64,000 bases of DNA. It comes from Mycobacteriales bacterium. GTDB lineage: Bacteria > Actinomycetota > Actinomycetes > Mycobacteriales > JBJMIH01. The notes below the pieces were generated by a model. The model was given only the letters and a program-made list of their open reading frames with translations. It was not told the origin of the DNA and did not search any database. Positions 28,701-34,700 of this stretch are shown piece by piece. The stretch lies in assembly GCA_045806985.1 (NCBI GenBank), contig JBJMIH010000031.1, positions 10,038-74,037 of the forward strand, written 5' to 3'. Every line of letters begins with the position of its first letter. Within the stretch, counting starts at the first letter, position 1. A program made the translations under genes and the position numbers.

Positions 28701-31700
28701 CGGATGTCGTCGGCGACGCAGGCGGCGACGAGTTCCTCGATGGCGGCCCGCTCGCCGGAGACGACGGTGGACGCCGGCCCGTTGACGGCGGCGATGCCGA
28801 GCCGGTCGCCCCAGGGCGCGGTCCGGGTCTCGACGTCGGCGACCGGCAGCGGCACCGAGGCCATGCCGCCGGTGCCGGCGAGGGTGGCGATGGCCTGGCT
28901 GCGGAGGGCGACGATGCGGGCGGCGTCCTCGAGGGTGAGTGCGCCGGCGACGTGGGCGGCGGCGATCTCGCCCTGCGAGTGGCCGACGACCGCGTCGGGT
29001 TCGACCCCGGCCGAGCGCCACAGTGCGGCCAGGGACACCATCACCGCCCACAGGGCGGGTTGGACGACGTCGACGCGTTCGAGGGCTTCGGGGTTGGCGA
29101 GCACGTCGGTGAGCAGCCAGTCGGTGTGCGGGGCGAGTGCGTCGGCGCAGGCACGCAGTTCGGTGGCGAAGACGGGGGAGGTGTCCAGCAGGTCCAGGGC
29201 CATGCCGGCCCACTGCGAGCCCTGGCCGGGGAACACGAACACGGTCCGGCCCGGCTCGCCGGCGGTACCGCGGACCACGCCGGGGGAGGGCTCGTCGGCG
29301 GCGAGCGCGTCCAGCGCGGCCCGGTACTCCTCCGGCGTGCCGGCGACGGTGACGGCACGCTCCGCGAGGGCGGCCCGTGCGGTGGCGAGCGTGTACGCGA
29401 CGTCGGCCGGGTCGGCCTCGCCGGCACGGTCACGCAGCCGGGCGGCCAGGTCGCGGAGGGCGGCCGGGGTCGCCGCCGACAGCGGCCACGGCCGTACCCG
29501 GGGCGGGGCGGGCTCGCCGGCCGGCTCGGGCTCCGGGGCCTGTTCGAGGATGAGGTGAGCGTTGGTGCCGCTCATCCCGAACGAGGACACCGCCGCCCGG
29601 CGCGGCCGGTCGAGCTCCGGCCAGGGGCGGCCCTCGGTGAGCAGCTCGACCGCGCCGGACTCCCAGTCCACGTGCGGGGACGGCTCGTCCACGTGCAGGG
29701 TCGGCGGCAGCTCGCCGTGGCGGAGCGCCTCCACCATCTTGATCACGCTGGCGACGCCGGCGGCGGCCTGGGTGTGGCCGATGTTCGACTTGATCGAGCC
29801 GAGGTAGAGGGGGACCTCCCGGTCCTGGCCGTACGTGGCCAGTACGGCCTGGGCCTCGATCGGGTCGCCGAGGGTGGTGCCGGTGCCGTGTGCCTCCACG
29901 GTGTCCACTTCGGACGGCTGGAGGCCGGCGCTGGCCAGCGTCCGCTGGATCAGGCGCTGCTGGGACGGGCCGTTGGGGGAGGTGAGGCCGTTGCTGGCCC
30001 CGTCGGAGTTGATCGCGGAGCCGCGCAGCAGCGCCAGCACCGGGTGGCCGTTGCGACGCGCGTCGGCGAGGCGCTCCACCACCAGCACGCCCACGCCCTC
30101 GGCGAACCCGGCGCCGTCGGCGCAGGCCGCGAACGCCTTGCACCGGCCGTCCGGGGCCAGCCCGCGCTGCCGGCTGAACGAGGAGAACAGCGCCGGCGTC
30201 GCCATCACGGTCACGCCGCCGACCAGGGCGAGCGAGCACTCGCCGCGGCGCAGCGCCTGCCCGGCCAGGTGCAGCGCGACCAGCGAGGACGAGCACGCGG
30301 TGTCCACGGTGAACGCCGGGCCTTCCAGGCCGAACGCGTACGACAGCCGCCCGGACAGCACGCTGGCGGGGAAGCCGGTCACGTAGTAGCCCTCGAGCGC
30401 GCCCGCGACCCGCTGGACGAGCTGGCCGTAGTCCTGGTTGTTGGTGCCGGCGAACACGCCGGTGTCGCTGCCGCGCAGTCCGGCCGGGTCGATGCCGGCG
30501 CGTTCCAGCGCCTCCCACGCGGTCTCCAGCAGGAGCCGCTGCTGCGGGTCGGTGGCCAGCGCCTCGCGCGGCGACATGCCGAAGAAGCCCGCGTCGAAGT
30601 CGGCGGCGCCGGCCAGGAATCCGCCGCGCCGGGTGGTGCTCTTGCCGGTCCGCTCCGGATCGGGGTCGTACAGCTCCTCGACGTTCCAGCCACGGTCGTC
30701 CGGGAAGTCGCCGACCGCGTCGACGCCCCCGGCGACCAGCCGCCACAGGTCCTCCGGGCTCTCCACGCCGCCGGGGAACCGGCAGCTCATCGCGACGATG
30801 GCGACCGGGGAGTCGGTGGTGGCGGTGGTGGGCGCCGCGGTCACCCGGTCGGTGGGGGCGGTGAGGTACCGGGCCAGCGCGGCCGGCGTGGGGTGGTCGA
30901 AGACCAGCGTGGCGTGCAGCCGGCGGTCGAGGGCGGCGGCCAGCCGGTCCCGCAGCCGCACGCCGGTGAGCGAGTCGAAGCCCAGGTCCTTGAACGCGCG
31001 GTCCGGCGGCACCGCCTCGGCGGAGGAGTACCCGAGGACGGCCGCGACCTCGGTGCGGACCAGTTCGAGGGGGTTGGCGACGCCGGCCGGCCCGGTGGCG
31101 GTGGCGGCGGCGCGGGGCAGTTCGGCCCGCTCGGCGGCACGCGGGGCGGTGCGCTCGGGCGCGGGAGCCGGCACGCCGTCGGCCGGCGCGGGCCGGGACA
31201 CCAGGCGGCCGACGGTGAGGACGGGGGCGCCGGTCGGGTCGGCGACCCGCACCGCGACGCCGCCCGGGGCGGGGCTGAGCACGACCCGGACGGTGCTCGC
31301 GCCGACCGCCCGCAGCGCCACGTCCGTCCAGGAGAACGGCAGGTTGACCGGGTCGGTGTCGAGGTCGGCGACGGCGGCGAGCGGTTGCAGCGCGGCGTCC
31401 AGCAGGGCCGGATGCAGGGCGTACCGGTCGGCGTCGCGCGGGTCGGGCAGGGCCGCCTCCGCGTACAGGACGTCGCCGGCCCGCCACGCGGCACGCAGGC
31501 CGCGGAATGCCGGGCCGTACCGCACGCCGGCACCGGCCAGCCGCTCGTACAGGCCGGCCAGCTCGACGGGTTCGGCGCCGGCCGGCGGCCACCCGGTCTC
31601 GGCGGCGGGCTCGGCAGCGGGAGCGGGCGAGGTGGGGATCAGGCCGGTGGCCTGCCGGGTCCAGCCGTCCTCGTCGGCGGCGTCCTCCGGTCGCGAGTGG

Positions 31701-34700
31701 ACAGCCAGCGGCCGGTCGCCGCCGCCGTCCGGCGGGCCGACCGTGACCTGGAGGTGTACGGCGCCGTGCGCGGGCAGTACCAGCGGTGTCTCCAGGGTCA
31801 GCTCGGCCACCCGGTCGGCGCCGAGGTGCCGGGCCGCCTGCAACGCCAACTCCACGAACCCGGTGCCGGGCAGCAGCACGCCGCCGTGCAGCGCGTGGTC
31901 GGCGAGCCACCCGTGGGTGTGCGCGGACAGCCGGCCGGTGAGCAGCAGGCTGTCGCCGCCGGCCACGGTGACGGCCGCGCCGAGCAGCGGGTGCCGGGTG
32001 CCGGCCAGGCCGAGCTCGGCGGCGCCGGCGGTGGCCGGGGTGTCGAGCCAGTGCCGTTCCCGCTGGAACGCGTAGGTGGGCAGCGGCACGGTACGGCCGG
32101 GCAGGCCCGCGTACAGGGCCGGCCAGTCGACCGGGACGCCGCGCACGTGCAGCTCGGCGGCGCCGGTGAGGAACTGCCGCCAGCCGTCCTCGTCGCGGCG
32201 CAGCGAGCCGGTCACCACCGGGTCGGCGCCGGCCGCGTCGGCGGTCTCGCGGATGCCGACGGTCAGCACCGGATGCGGGCTGGCCTCCACGAACGTGCCG
32301 TACCCGTCGGCGAGCAGGGCCTCGACCGCCGGGGCGAACCGGACCGGCTGCCGGAGGTTCTCGTACCAGTACCCCGTGTCGAGCTCGGTGGTGTCGAGCT
32401 GGCCGCCGGCCGTCGCCGAGTAGTACGCGACCGTCGTGGGCCGGGGCTCGATGCCGGCGAGCGCGTCCAGGAGCCGGTCGCGGACGGCCTCGATCCGAGG
32501 GGAGTGCGAGGCGTAGTCGACGGGGATGATCCTGGCGCGCACACCGTCCGCCTCGCAGGCGGCGACCAGCTCGTCCAGGGCGGCCGGCTCGCCGGACACG
32601 ACCGTGGCGGCCGGGCCGTTGAGCGCGGCCACCGACAGCCGGTCGCCCCACCGGGCGATCCGGTCGCGGACCTGGTCGGCGGGGAGCGCGACCGAGGCCA
32701 TGCCGCCGGTGCCGGCGAGGGTGGCGATGGCCTGGCTGCGGAGGGCGACGATGCGGGCGGCGTCCTCGAGGGTGAGTGCGCCGGCGACGTGGGCGGCGGC
32801 GATCTCGCCCTGCGAGTGGCCGACGACGGCGTCGGGTTCGACCCCGGCCGAGCGCCACAGTGCGGCCAGGGACACCATCACCGCCCACAGGGCGGGTTGG
32901 ACGACGTCGACGCGTTCGAGGGCTTCGGGGTTGGCGAGCACGTCGGTGAGTAGCCAGTCGGTGTGCGGGGTGAGCGCGTCGGCGCAGGCGCGCAGTTCGG
33001 TGGCGAAGACGGGGGAGGTGTCCAGCAGGTCCAGGGCCATGCCGGCCCACTGCGAGCCCTGGCCGGGGAACACGAACACGGTCCGGCCCGGCTCGCCGGC
33101 GGTACCGCGGACCACGCCGGGGTCGGTCATGCCGGCGGCGAGCGCGTCCAGCGCGGCCACCGGGTCGTCGGCCAGGACGACGGCCCGGTCCTCGAACGTC
33201 GCCCGCGTGGTGGCGAGCGAGCGGCCCACCTCCGCCGGGTCCAGGCCACGGGCGTGGTCGCGCAGGCGGGCCGCCTGGGCGACCAGGGCGGGCGTGCCGC
33301 GCCCGGACACCAGCCACGGCTGGACCGGAAGCGCCGTCGCCGGCACCGGCCTGTCCGGCGCCGGTGCGGCGGGACGCGACTCCGGGTCGGGGGCTTGCTC
33401 GACGATGACGTGGGCGTTGGTGCCGCTGATGCCGAAGGAGGAGACTCCGGCCCGGCGCGGCCGGTCGGCGGACGGCCAGGGGCGGGGCTCGGTGAGGAGT
33501 GCGACGGCGCCGGCGGTCCAGTCCACGTGCGGGGTGGGCTCGTCCACGTGCAGGGTGCGGGGGAGCTCGCCGTGGCGGAGGGCCTCCACCATCTTGATCA
33601 GGCCGGCGACGCCGGCGGCGGCCTGGGTGTGGCCGATGTTCGACTTGACGGAACCGAGGTAGAGCGGCTGGGCGCGGTCCTGGCCGTACGTGGCGAGCAG
33701 TGCCTGGGCCTCGATCGGGTCGCCGAGGGTCGTACCGGTGCCGTGCGCCTCCACCGCATCCACATCGGACGGACGGAGGCCGGCGGCGGCCAGCGCGGCC
33801 CTGATCACCCGCTGCTGGGACGGGCCGTTCGGGGCGGACAGCCGGCTGCTGGCGCCGTCGGAGTTGACCGCGGAGCCGCTGATCACCGCGAGCACCGGGT
33901 GGCCGTGGCGGCGCGCGTCGGACAGCCGCTCGAGCAGCAGCAGGCCGGCGCCGTCGGAGAACCCGGTGCCGTCGGCGGCCGCCGCGAAGGCCTTGCACCG
34001 GCCGTCCGCGGCCAGCCCGCGCTGCCGGCTGAACTCCACGTACCCGCCGGGCGTGGTGATGACCGTCGAGCCGCCGGCCAACGCGAGCCCGCACTCGCCC
34101 TGCCGCAGCGCCTGGCAGGCCAGGTGCACCGCGACCAGCGAGGAGGAGCAGGCGGTGTCGAGGGTGACCGCGGGGCCCTCCAGCCCGAAGTGGTACGCGA
34201 CCCGGCCAGACGCCACGCTGGTGGTGCTGCCGGTGAACACGTGTCCCTCGTAGCCCTCCGGCGCCGGGTACAGCGGCCGGCCGTAGTCCATCCCGATCAC
34301 GCCGACGAACACCCCTGTTGAACTGCCGCGCAGCGAGGTCGGCGGGATGCCGGCGCGCTCGAACGCCTCCCACGCGGTCTCCAGCAGCAGCCGCTGCTGC
34401 GGGTCGGTGGCGTCGGCCTCGCGCGGGCTGATCCCGAAGAAGGCGGCGTCGAACTCGTCCGCGTCGTGCACGAACCCGCCGGTGTTGGCGTACGAGGTGC
34501 CGTCGTGGGACGGGTCGGGGTGGTAGATCCGGTCGAGGTCCCAGCCCCGGTTGTCCGGAAACTCGGTGATCGCGTCGGTACCCTCGGCGACCAGCCGCCA
34601 CAGGCCTTCGGGGTCGCGCACGCCGCCCGGGTACCGGCAGCTCATCGCCACGACGGCGATCGGCTCGCCAGGCCCGGCGGCGGACCCGCCGGTCTCCCGG

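What the first reader, a model, noticed from the sequence alone, without database searches (positions are those of the whole stretch)
30848..31993. Module 4 has an apparently intact DH but no KR at all (KS-AT-DH-ACP)
The DH keeps its catalytic features:
- His in [10 protein letters not shown] (codon 31895-31897).
- The YGP motif (VRYGPAF).
- The Asp of LLDAALQ (codon 31397-31399).

Only about 35-40 residues separate the DH end (...[11 protein letters not shown]) from the ACP (Ser 30971-30973). The KR, including its structural half, is therefore absent rather than mutated. A DH cannot act on a beta-keto group.

Position matters here. If C13 were reduced by another KR and then dehydrated, C12=C13 would conjugate with the module-5 C10=C11 alkene. 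That gives a 1,7,9-decatriene relationship to the module-8 C4=C5 enone, with a four-carbon C6-C9 tether. This is the substrate geometry for decalin-forming IMDA in class II spirotetronates.

Three explanations remain open. The DH may be a relic of a recent in-frame KR deletion. A KR may act in trans or across modules. Or the DH may have another role.
Basis: partly seen in the sequence, partly recalled or inferred. Interest (0 to 1): 0.7.

Follow-up and report, generated by a model that had tools for sequence, protein, structure and literature searches.

The report
PKS module with dehydratase, no ketoreductase
One module of an orphan tetronate-type polyketide assembly line from an uncultured actinobacterium has cleanly lost its ketoreductase but keeps a well-preserved dehydratase, which most likely sits idle and leaves a ketone in the product, a known kind of oddity that still matters for predicting the compound.

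Summary
The first module of the 5036-aa PKS gene (19664-34774, minus strand) is KS-AT-DH-ACP. Pfam finds no KR or pseudo-KR even at E<=10. The module is about 1.1-1.3 kb shorter than the DH-KR modules. The DH end is fused to what looks like the tail of a KR-to-ACP linker, so the deletion follows domain boundaries.

DH4 keeps His960, Asp1126, YGP and LPFSW. It deviates at none of the 40 most conserved DH columns. Its model is a complete double hot-dog (pLDDT 90, TM 0.85-0.90 to solved PKS dehydratases). Nothing at the junction suggests misassembly.

I found no ortholog of this module. KR-less DH-ACP modules do recur in other actinobacteria (about 1.5% of DH modules sampled). They look like independent losses, and most are more decayed than DH4.

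The window holds no free-standing KR gene and no FAD-type decalin cyclase.

Most likely (about 0.55), DH4 is catalytically idle and module 4 delivers a C13 ketone, as the keto module of abyssomicin does. That route implies an unprecedented 9-membered macrocycle. Interest is moderate to low.

The parts
33395..34666 (-). KS4, ketosynthase of module 4 (A2 residues about 37-460)
   Evidence: Pfam ketoacyl-synt and Ketoacyl-synt_C. DTACSSS and HGTGT motifs are present.
32135..33079 (-). AT4, a methylmalonyl-type acyltransferase (GHSQG, YASH). It contains a 426-nt tract (32690-33115) that is 98.6% identical to AT5 (28853-29278).
   Evidence: Pfam Acyl_transf_1 at residues 566-880, motifs, identity of the tract.
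31175..31993 (-). DH4, a complete double hot-dog dehydratase domain. Key residues are His960 (31895-31897), YGP in [13 protein letters not shown] and Asp1126 (31397-31399).
   Evidence: Pfam PKS_DH_N E 1e-29 and PS-DH E 1.2e-20. Aligned with the seven other DHs of the cluster. It deviates at 0 of 40 columns conserved in >=93% of 376 DH domains of KR-containing modules. AF2 pLDDT is above 90 over the domain. Foldseek TM 0.85-0.90 and 44-46% identity to the borrelidin/fluvirucin DH entry 6OBV, RifDH10, AmbDH3 and DEBS DH.
31064..31174 (-). DH-to-ACP linker, which is the KR deletion junction (residues 1201-1237, [37 protein letters not shown])
   Evidence: Nucleotide homology to the other modules stops at about 31180 on the DH side and about 31070-31082 on the ACP side. 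The linker resembles the tail of the KR1-to-ACP1 linker. It is predicted disordered, with pLDDT below 50. TRF finds only a 20-nt hexamer array (31093-31112, score 33) inside the linker and no long repeat at the junction.
30863..31063 (-). ACP4 with phosphopantetheine Ser1268 (30971-30973). Helix II reads [12 protein letters not shown] instead of [12 protein letters not shown].
   Evidence: Pfam PP-binding E 5.6e-13. It is the most divergent ACP of the cluster, 40-52% identical to the others. AF2 pLDDT is above 90.
29525..30802 (-). KS5, the ketosynthase that must accept the module-4 product. It is the most divergent extension KS of the cluster (69-73% identity).
   Evidence: KS alignment and identity matrix. 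Catalytic Cys and both His are retained. Its unusual residues are not shared by other KSs downstream of keto-producing modules.
26075..27334 (-). Pseudo-KR plus KR5 (B-type, LDD) on the same polypeptide. It is the nearest candidate if a KR acts across modules. It also marks the roughly 1.3 kb that module 4 lacks.
   Evidence: Pfam KR and SpnB_Rossmann. LDD and YAAAN motifs. In the blastn comparison of M4 with M5, the equivalent interval has no counterpart in M4.
4563..5645 (-). Decayed KR0 of the last module (M9), for contrast. Here an unneeded KR was left to degenerate rather than being deleted.
   Evidence: The PKS_DE dimerisation element is followed by about 365 residues with no Pfam hit at E<=1. 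Only weak pseudo-KR similarity to KR5 remains, and GxGxxG and the catalytic Tyr are lost.
53733..58771 (-). Tetronate cassette: KAS III-like gene (57677-58771), FkbH-domain gene (open frame 55800-58076, likely start near 57670), small ACP (about 55576-55800), E2-acyltransferase-like gene (54815-55579) and alpha/beta hydrolase gene (53733-54818)
   Evidence: Pfam. NCBIfam FkbH domain TIGR01686 E 1.6e-89, 300 bits against a cutoff of 147. The gene set and order match abyA1-A5 (PMC3625739).
920..2642 (-). Three tandem AbyU/Cyc15-like beta-barrel genes (putative [4+2] cyclases) at 2109-2642, 1532-2095 and 920-1510
   Evidence: Pfam AOC_like E 9e-12, 8e-13 and 7e-19. Closest solved structures are Cyc15 8OF7, AbyU, AbmU, PloI4 and PyrI4.

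Best explanation
Module 4 descends from an ordinary KS-AT-DH-KR-ACP module. It lost the whole pseudo-KR/KR unit (about 1.2 kb, roughly 400 residues) by an in-frame deletion at the domain boundaries.

Without a KR, ACP4 carries a 2-methyl-3-ketoacyl intermediate that DH4 cannot dehydrate. The chain then passes to KS5 with the ketone intact, and the product carries a C13 ketone.

DH4 is kept as a folded but catalytically idle spacer between AT4 and ACP4. The result matches the keto module of the abyssomicin PKS, where DH and KR are both present but point-inactivated.

Shown: the architecture, the junction, the intact DH and ACP folds and motifs, and the absence of any other KR gene in the window. 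Inferred: that no KR reaches ACP4, that the DH is idle, and that the product carries the ketone.
For: - No KR or pseudo-KR signal at E<=10, and 37 residues between DH and ACP.
- The module is 1.1-1.3 kb shorter than the DH-KR modules.
- Homology to other modules breaks inside 31070-31180, and the linker matches the tail of a KR-to-ACP linker.
- No free SDR/KR gene lies among the flanking genes.
- KR-less DH-ACP modules recur: 5 of about 330 DH domains in related loci and 12 of 120 protein hits. They do not cluster together, and none matches DH4 or ACP4 specifically, so these are repeated independent losses.
- Most of them are degenerate at conserved DH positions, as expected for idle domains.
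- ACP4 is the most divergent ACP. It has a Glu-to-Arg change in helix II and an Ala-to-Gly change at Ser+3. That Gly occurs in 4 of 12 KR-less lineages and 2 of 12 AT-ACP modules, against 10 of 382 ACPs that follow a KR. This fits an ACP no longer constrained by a KR partner.
- Precedent for a mid-chain keto module with non-functional reductive domains in a tetronate pathway: abyssomicin AbyB2 module 5 (PMC3625739).
Against: - DH4 shows no decay. It deviates at 0 of 40 of the most conserved columns and 6 of 85 at the >=80% level, as good as the working DH5, DH6 and DH8. In the same cluster the unneeded KR of module 9 has decayed beyond Pfam recognition. An idle DH must therefore be a recent relic or be kept for structural reasons.
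- Module 4 sits exactly where class II spirotetronate lines make the 12-ene of the decalin diene.
- The cluster has three putative [4+2] cyclases, but the predicted chain has only one conjugated diene if C13 stays a ketone.
- The reference set for the conservation test was retrieved by similarity to DH4, which flatters DH4.
Confidence: 0.55

Rival explanations
1. DH4 is active because a KR from elsewhere reduces the ACP4-bound beta-ketoacyl chain. The source could be KR5 on the same polypeptide, KR3 on the docked upstream subunit, or an unlinked KR. DH4 then makes a C12=C13 alkene. Together with the module-5 alkene this gives a 10,12-diene that undergoes an intramolecular Diels-Alder reaction with the 4-ene, as in class II spirotetronates.
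For: - DH4 is fully conserved and well folded.
- All seven KRs are B-type (LDD), the type that feeds DH domains.
- The module order beyond M4 (DH-KR, two fully reducing modules, DH-KR, keto) reproduces the 4-ene, C6-C9 tether and 10-ene pattern of class II chains. Only the 12-ene is missing.
- Three beta-barrel cyclase genes suggest more than one cycloaddition.
Against: - No free KR gene is in the window.
- ACP4 has diverged most at the helix II surface that partner domains read.
- No FAD-type decalin cyclase is in the window.
- With nine extension modules the decalin route leaves a 9-membered macrocycle (C2, C3, C4, C13-C16, spiro carbon, enol carbon; my count). I recall no known spirotetronate with such a ring.
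- KS5 shows no resemblance to the KSs that take 2-methyl-enoyl chains (KS2, KS3, KS6) beyond the general 69-71% identity.
Confidence: 0.2
2. DH4 has been repurposed for a reaction that needs no beta-hydroxyl. Candidates are enolisation or epimerisation at C12, double-bond isomerisation, or templating a cyclisation. Known relatives with extra activities include AmbDH3 (dehydratase-cyclase) and GphF DH1 (dehydratase-isomerase).
For: - The catalytic His/Asp dyad and the pocket are retained without a KR.
- Solved bifunctional DHs are among the structural neighbours: AmbDH3 5O15 at TM 0.86-0.89, and GphF DH1 6MBF/6MBG.
- KR-less DHs from 11 lineages share substitutions next to the catalytic residues. 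These are HPV for HPA (p 1e-5), Leu at His+2 (p 1e-4), GVxYGP (p 3e-4) and DxxxQ (p 6e-4). DH4 carries three of the four.
Against: - The structural hits only reflect the common DH fold.
- The shared substitutions could reflect relaxed selection or retrieval bias, and only two survive a multiple-testing correction.
- The module-3 product is fully reduced (DH, pseudo-KR, ER and KR present, ER3 NADPH motif intact). The ACP4-bound chain therefore has no nearby hydroxyl or alkene for cyclisation or isomerisation.
- DH4 has YGP, not the WGP reported for diene-forming DHs.
Confidence: 0.12
3. The missing KR is an artefact of metagenome assembly or consensus calling. The real gene would have DH-KR-ACP.
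For: - The window comes from a metagenome-assembled genome. A 100% identical protein is named 'MAG: Mycobacteriales bacterium', on a 190-kb contig.
- PKS genes are repeat-rich, for example the 426-nt 98.6% identical AT4/AT5 tract.
Against: - Repeat collapse joins homologous sequences and removes whole module-length units. The DH-to-linker junction lies in sequence with no detectable homology to the other modules, and TRF finds only a 20-nt hexamer array there.
- The frame is kept across a 15-kb ORF, and all four giant PKS ORFs are uninterrupted.
- The junction falls exactly on domain boundaries and leaves a linker of normal length. There are 86 residues from DxxGxPV to the Ser motif, against 90-111 in KR-less modules from isolate genomes.
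- The same architecture occurs in cultured-strain genomes: Lentzea kentuckyensis, Streptomyces hayashii and S. sabulosicollis.
Confidence: 0.05

Closest known systems
Abyssomicin PKS keto module (AbyB2 module 5, Verrucosispora maris)
   Same: It is a mid-chain module of a tetronate/spirotetronate assembly line that uses methylmalonate and must leave a beta-ketone. It still carries a DH. The gene neighbourhood has the same logic: a five-gene tetronate cassette followed by the PKS genes. TetR, exporter and AbyU-type cyclase genes also occur in both clusters, though not in the same positions.
   Different: In abyssomicin both DH and KR are present and inactivated by point substitutions (His to Leu and Asp to Thr in the DH; Lys to Ile and Tyr to Val in the KR; PMC3625739). 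Here the KR is physically deleted and the DH keeps every catalytic residue. The chain is also three modules longer and more methylated.
KR-less DH-ACP modules in other actinobacterial cis-AT PKSs (Lentzea kentuckyensis L001, Streptomyces hayashii L047, S. sabulosicollis L055, Parafrankia P0004/P0007 and others)
   Same: They share the KS-AT-DH-ACP order, a short disordered DH-ACP linker, and retention of the catalytic His and Asp in all 11 lineages examined.
   Different: None is an ortholog. Identity is 42-50%, and their DH and ACP domains match other modules of this cluster better than DH4 or ACP4. Most are more degenerate than DH4. I found no functional study of any of them.
Class II spirotetronate assembly lines (for example MM 46115/pellemicin, kijanimicin, chlorothricin)
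   Same: They have the tetronate cassette, a beta-barrel spirotetronate cyclase, a last module with a decayed KR, and the pattern of a 4-ene, a saturated or hydroxylated C6-C9 tether and a 10-ene.
   Different: Those lines make the 12-ene with a complete DH-KR module and have 11 or more extension modules. Here the module at the 12-ene position lacks a KR, there are nine extension modules, no FAD cyclase is in the window, and there are three beta-barrel genes.
Canonical PKS dehydratase domains with solved structures (DEBS DH 3EL6, RifDH10 4LN9, 6OBV borrelidin/fluvirucin DH entry, AmbDH3 5O15)
   Same: They share the double hot-dog fold at TM 0.85-0.90 and 44-46% identity, and the HxxxGxxxxP, YGP, LPFxW and DxxxQ motifs.
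   Different: As far as I know, those domains sit in modules with a KR that supplies the beta-hydroxyacyl substrate. DH4 has none.

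Membership tests
cis-AT modular PKS dehydratase domain (PF21089 + PF14765) | Double hot-dog fold of full length | tested here: met
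   Pfam E 1e-29 and 1.2e-20. The AF2 model has pLDDT above 90 across residues 1-270. Foldseek TM 0.85-0.90 to 6OBV, 4LN9, 5O15 and 3EL6.
cis-AT modular PKS dehydratase domain (PF21089 + PF14765) | Catalytic His in HxxxGxxxxP and catalytic Asp in DxxxQ/H, plus the YGP and LPFxW motifs | tested here: met
   [28 protein letters not shown] and LPFSW are present. DH4 deviates at 0 of the 40 most conserved columns.
cis-AT modular PKS dehydratase domain (PF21089 + PF14765) | A KR in the same module that supplies the beta-hydroxyacyl-ACP substrate | tested here: not met
   No KR, adh_short or SpnB_Rossmann hit at E<=10 between DH and ACP. The module is 1.1-1.3 kb short.
cis-AT modular PKS dehydratase domain (PF21089 + PF14765) | Dehydratase activity on its own ACP-bound intermediate | not testable with these tools
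   This needs an in vitro assay or a point mutant.
Keto-retaining extension module with vestigial reductive domain(s), as in abyssomicin AbyB2 module 5 | No functional KR in the module | tested here: met
   The KR is absent. In abyssomicin the KR is present but mutated.
Keto-retaining extension module with vestigial reductive domain(s), as in abyssomicin AbyB2 module 5 | The product carries a ketone at the corresponding carbon | not testable with these tools
   The cluster comes from an uncultured MAG and no product is known.
Tetronate / spirotetronate biosynthetic gene cluster | Glyceryl-ACP cassette: FkbH-domain protein, small ACP, KAS III-like condensing enzyme, E2-like acyltransferase and alpha/beta hydrolase | tested here: met
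   FkbH TIGR01686 E 1.6e-89. ACP_syn_III, 2-oxoacid_dh and Abhydrolase hits. The ACP hit is weak, E 8e-4.
Tetronate / spirotetronate biosynthetic gene cluster | AbyU/PyrI4-type beta-barrel [4+2] cyclase | tested here: met
   Three AOC_like genes. Hits to Cyc15, AbyU, AbmU, PloI4 and PyrI4.
Class II (decalin-bearing) spirotetronate pathway | A 4-ene plus a 10,12-diene separated by a four-carbon tether, made by complete DH-KR modules | tested here: not met
   The 4-ene (M8), the 10-ene (M5) and the tether (M6, M7) are predicted. The module at the 12-ene position (M4) has no KR. Compare the 4E,10E,12E pattern of MM 46115.
Class II (decalin-bearing) spirotetronate pathway | PyrE3/ChlE3-type FAD-binding decalin cyclase | tested here: inconclusive
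   None was found among the genes of the window. The cluster may continue beyond the left edge, where a carboxyltransferase gene is cut at position 3.
Module served by a trans or cross-module reductive domain | A free-standing KR/SDR gene in the cluster, or demonstrated cross-module activity | tested here: inconclusive
   No free SDR gene is in the window. Cross-module action of KR3 or KR5 cannot be tested by sequence.
Diene-forming DH domains (WGP variant) | YGP replaced by WGP | tested here: not met
   DH4 has RYGP. The criterion comes from bioRxiv 10.1101/2025.09.18.677008.

The most novel reading that the evidence does not exclude
DH4 is a working dehydratase fed by a KR of a neighbouring module, most plausibly KR5 on the same polypeptide. 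The line would then make a 4,10,12-triene plus a terminal 16,18-diene. The three beta-barrel cyclases alone, without an FAD-type partner, would build both a decalin and a spirotetronate around an unprecedented 9-membered carbocycle. This would be a case of cross-module ketoreduction in a cis-AT PKS, for which I know no described precedent, and a new spirotetronate ring class.
Probability: 0.15. Interest if true: 0.8.

Novelty: new member of a known kind. Interest (0 to 1): 0.35.

Why it matters
The redox state at C13 decides which compound this orphan cluster makes. A ketone gives a 17-membered, abyssomicin-like macrocyclic spirotetronate with one cycloaddition. An alkene gives a second diene and a decalin.

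The case is also a clean natural example of a reductive-loop edit. The KR is excised at its domain boundaries, and DH and ACP stay folded. PKS engineers try to make such edits by design. If DH4 turned out to be active, it would expose cross-module ketoreduction.

As it stands, the feature is a recurring, usually silent architectural oddity. Its main value is as a caution when predicting the product.

Tried and rejected
**Ortholog searches.** The aim was to test conservation of the KR-less state and to date the deletion.
- The GTDB species genomes gave a best hit of 47% identity.
- JGI and other metagenome contigs gave a best hit of 48%.
- The 5.8-billion protein collection gave a best hit of 49-55%.
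- An exact look-up of a window protein and of its 100% identical record found nothing.
- The only close relative of the cluster is a cyclase homolog at 85% identity. It sits on a 3.6-kb contig that does not reach the PKS.
- Megablast against plasmids returned only generic ACP similarity.

**A clade of KR-less DH domains.** I rejected this idea. Nearest neighbours of each KR-less DH are ordinary DHs from DH-KR or DH-ER-KR modules. None of the foreign KR-less modules matches DH4 or ACP4 best.

**A KS5 fingerprint for a beta-keto or an enoyl substrate.** KS5 is the outlier KS of the cluster. Its unusual residues are not shared by 18 KSs that follow keto-producing modules, so this test is uninformative.

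**An inactive ER3.** I checked whether ER3 is dead, which would give an abyssomicin-like keto-triene. Its NADPH motif is intact.

**The middle of module 9 as a spare KR.** It is a decayed KR0.

**Literature.** Searches for 'KS-AT-DH-ACP' and for modules lacking a KR returned only fungal or unrelated papers.

**Repeats at the junction.** TRF found only a 20-nt hexamer array inside the linker, and blastn found no homology to other modules there. The direct-repeat families reported were the KS repeats. A self-megablast at >=92% identity printed nothing, so I measured the AT4/AT5 tract directly.

Full report
**What the window is.** The minus strand carries four collinear type I PKS genes:
- A1 (34778-53743, 6321 aa)
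- A2 (19664-34774, 5036 aa)
- A3 (8529-19667, 3712 aa)
- A4 (4287-8522, 1411 aa)

Upstream lies a complete tetronate cassette. It comprises a KAS III-like gene, an FkbH-domain gene (TIGR01686, E 1.6e-89), a small ACP, an E2-acyltransferase-like gene and an alpha/beta hydrolase gene. The arrangement matches abyA1-A5 of the abyssomicin cluster (PMC3625739).

Downstream lie an MFS exporter and three tandem AOC_like beta-barrel genes. Their closest solved relatives are Cyc15 (8OF7), AbyU, AbmU, PloI4 and PyrI4.

One window protein is 100% identical to a record named 'MAG: Mycobacteriales bacterium' on a 190-kb contig. The cluster is therefore orphan and its product is unknown.

**Domain map.** Motif and Pfam mapping give:

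| Unit | Extender | Reductive domains |
|---|---|---|
| Loader | malonyl (KSQ-AT-ACP) | none |
| M1, M2 | methylmalonyl | DH-KR |
| M3 | methylmalonyl | DH, pseudo-KR, ER, KR |
| M4 | methylmalonyl | DH only |
| M5 | methylmalonyl | DH-KR |
| M6 | malonyl | DH-ER-KR |
| M7 | methylmalonyl | DH-ER-KR |
| M8 | malonyl | DH-KR |
| M9 | malonyl | decayed KR0 |

Every coordinate in the finding is correct:
- DH from His928 (nt 31993)
- His960 at 31895-31897
- Asp1126 at 31397-31399
- ACP Ser1268 at 30971-30973

Pfam on residues 909-1345 finds only the two DH halves, the ACP and the start of KS5. Even at E<=10 nothing else appears. The DH model ends at residue 1200 and the ACP model starts at 1238.

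The KS repeat spacing gives 3855 nt for M4, against 4935-5193 nt for the DH-KR modules.

A blastn comparison of M4 with the rest of the window loses homology between about 31180 (DH side) and 31070-31082 (ACP side). In M5 the equivalent interval is about 1.3 kb.

**The junction.** The DH ends normally with LVSRPAPAD, which aligns with [11 protein letters not shown] of DH1. It continues as [41 protein letters not shown]. This resembles the last part of the KR1-to-ACP1 linker, [30 protein letters not shown]. The pseudo-KR/KR unit was therefore excised at its own boundaries.

**Is it an artefact?** This is unlikely.
- Assembly collapse joins homologous repeats and would delete a module-length unit. 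This junction lies in sequence with no detectable homology to the other modules, and TRF finds only a 20-nt hexamer array inside the linker.
- The closest long repeat I measured is a 426-nt, 98.6% identical AT4/AT5 tract about 1.5 kb away.
- The reading frame is kept through a 15-kb ORF.
- The linker length is close to normal. There are 86 residues from DxxGxPV to the Ser motif, against 90-111 in other KR-less modules.
- The same KS-AT-DH-ACP order occurs in isolate genomes of Lentzea kentuckyensis, Streptomyces hayashii and S. sabulosicollis.

**State of DH4 and ACP4.**
- Aligned with the seven other DHs of the cluster, DH4 has HxxxGxxxxP, YGP, LPFxW and DxxxQ.
- I compared it with 376 DH domains from KR-containing modules in the retrieved loci and proteins. 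DH4 deviates at 0 of 40 columns conserved at >=93% and at 6 of 85 conserved at >=80%. This is on a par with DH5, DH6 and DH8.
- An AlphaFold2 model of DH4-ACP4 has mean pLDDT 90. It shows two well-folded domains and a disordered linker (residues 282-303 of the fragment).
- Foldseek places the DH with the borrelidin/fluvirucin DH entry 6OBV, RifDH10, AmbDH3 and DEBS DH at TM 0.85-0.90 and 44-46% identity.
- A caveat applies: the reference set was retrieved with DH4 as query, so DH4 is favoured in such a comparison.
- ACP4 keeps GFDSL but is the most divergent ACP of the cluster (40-52% identity). Its helix II reads [12 protein letters not shown].

**How common is this, and is it one lineage?**
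- In the related loci, 5 of about 330 DH domains are followed directly by an ACP. One of the five lies 940 nt from its ACP, leaving four with a directly adjoining ACP.
- Among the 120 best protein hits, 12 are DH-ACP without a KR.
- They are not a clade. Each has ordinary DHs from DH-KR or DH-ER-KR modules as nearest neighbours, and none matches DH4 or ACP4 best among this cluster's domains. KR loss with DH retention has therefore happened repeatedly.
- All 11 lineages keep the catalytic His and Asp. Most are more degenerate than DH4, with a median near the 90th percentile of deviation.
- They share some substitutions beside the catalytic residues. These are HPV for HPA, Leu at His+2, GVxYGP and DxxxQ, and DH4 has three of the four.
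- Their ACPs often have Gly at Ser+3: 4 of 12 lineages, against 10 of 382 ACPs that follow a KR.
- These signals are weak. They could reflect relaxed constraint, convergence or retrieval bias.

**No ortholog.** Searches of species genomes, metagenome contigs and the protein collection gave nothing above 47-55% identity for this module. The only close relative of the cluster sits on a 3.6-kb contig that does not reach the PKS. The age of the deletion and selection on DH4 therefore cannot be measured.

**What it most likely does.** By established PKS enzymology, a DH needs a beta-hydroxyacyl-ACP. Module 4 cannot make one.
- The window has no free SDR/KR gene.
- The module-3 product is fully reduced. 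ER3 keeps its NADPH motif. The ACP4-bound chain therefore offers DH4 no other hydroxyl or alkene nearby.
- The simplest reading is that M4 passes a 2-methyl-3-ketoacyl chain to KS5 and the product keeps a C13 ketone. DH4 would be a folded, idle spacer.
- The abyssomicin pathway gives a precedent for the outcome. Its mid-chain ketone comes from a module whose DH and KR are both present but point-inactivated.
- I put this explanation at about 0.55.

**Why it is not settled.** Three things pull the other way.
- DH4 shows no decay, while the unneeded KR of M9 in the same cluster has decayed beyond Pfam recognition.
- M4 sits where class II spirotetronate lines make the 12-ene. Their chains carry 4E,10E,12E. 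This line is predicted to make the 4-ene, the saturated C6-C9 tether and the 10-ene.
- There are three putative [4+2] cyclases, but only one conjugated diene if C13 is a ketone.

A KR acting across modules (KR5 or KR3, both B-type) would resolve all three points. I give that about 0.2.

Several points count against it:
- ACP4 is divergent.
- No PyrE3-type FAD cyclase is in the window.
- By my count the decalin route would leave a 9-membered macrocycle (C2, C3, C4, C13-C16, spiro carbon and enol carbon). The known spirotetronate ring sizes I recall are 11, 13 and 17 atoms.
- Without the decalin the ring is 17-membered.

A repurposed DH (enolisation, epimerisation, isomerisation or cyclisation) gets about 0.12. 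An assembly artefact gets about 0.05.

**Comparison and verdict.** DH4 is a member of the PKS DH family by fold and motifs. It fails the contextual criterion of a partner KR. The module works like a keto-retaining module of the abyssomicin type but reaches that state by deletion rather than point mutation.

KR-less DH modules are a recurring, usually ignored architecture. This is a new and unusually well-preserved member of a known kind.

Interest is moderate to low (0.35). It would be high only if product analysis or a DH4 mutant showed the domain to be active.

Noticed in passing
window 920-2642 (-): Three tandem AbyU/Cyc15-like beta-barrel genes (196, 187 and 177 aa). The first two hit Cyc15 8OF7 at E 8e-28 and 2e-20. 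The third is distant, with PloI4 as best hit at 8e-6. The abyssomicin-type clusters I recall have one such cyclase. With a C13 ketone, the predicted chain offers only one diene for three putative cyclases.
   Followed up: partly
window 4563-5645 (-), module 9 of A4: The last module has a dimerisation element followed by about 365 residues with no Pfam hit. This is a KR decayed beyond recognition, with GxGxxG and the catalytic Tyr lost. Its ACP motif is GFSSF rather than GFDSL. The same decayed terminal KR is described for the MM 46115 spirotetronate PKS.
   Followed up: partly
window 32690-33115 and 28853-29278 (-): A 426-nt tract of AT4 and AT5 is 98.6% identical, while the surrounding modules are about 78% identical. 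This looks like a recent gene-conversion patch between neighbouring modules.
   Followed up: yes
window 29525-30802 (-), KS5: KS5 is the most divergent extension KS (69-73% identity, against up to 86% among the others). It carries Ser and Thr at two columns that are Ala in about 100% of 252 comparison KSs (LTSPNG...QRTLASAG). The catalytic Cys and both His are intact.
   Followed up: partly
related loci L001, L047, L055, L080 and proteins P0001-P0067: KR-less DH domains from 11 independent lineages share substitutions next to the catalytic residues: HPV for HPA, Leu at His+2, GVxYGP and DxxxQ. Their ACPs are enriched for Gly at Ser+3. This may be a signature of life without a KR, or it may be retrieval bias.
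   Followed up: partly
window 35444-38176 (-), module 3: DH3 has HxxxD and YGL in place of YGP, yet it sits in a full DH-ER-KR loop. ER3 reads LDMV where ER6 and ER7 read LGMY. From my knowledge of ER stereocontrol, this predicts the opposite C2-methyl configuration at C14.
   Followed up: no
window 59486-63951: The right flank holds citrate-synthase-like, CoA-transferase family III, IclR regulator and aldehyde dehydrogenase genes. These are probably primary metabolism that marks the cluster edge. The left edge cuts a carboxyltransferase gene (3-875), so the cluster may extend further left.
   Followed up: no
locus L079 (JGI 3300061856, Ga0586916_0115785): A metagenome contig encodes an 85% identical homolog of the first cyclase next to a carboxyltransferase gene. 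The gene order is similar to the left end of the window, with a small DUF5988 gene in between. A sister cluster therefore exists in that sample but is assembled only as a 3.6-kb fragment.
   Followed up: partly
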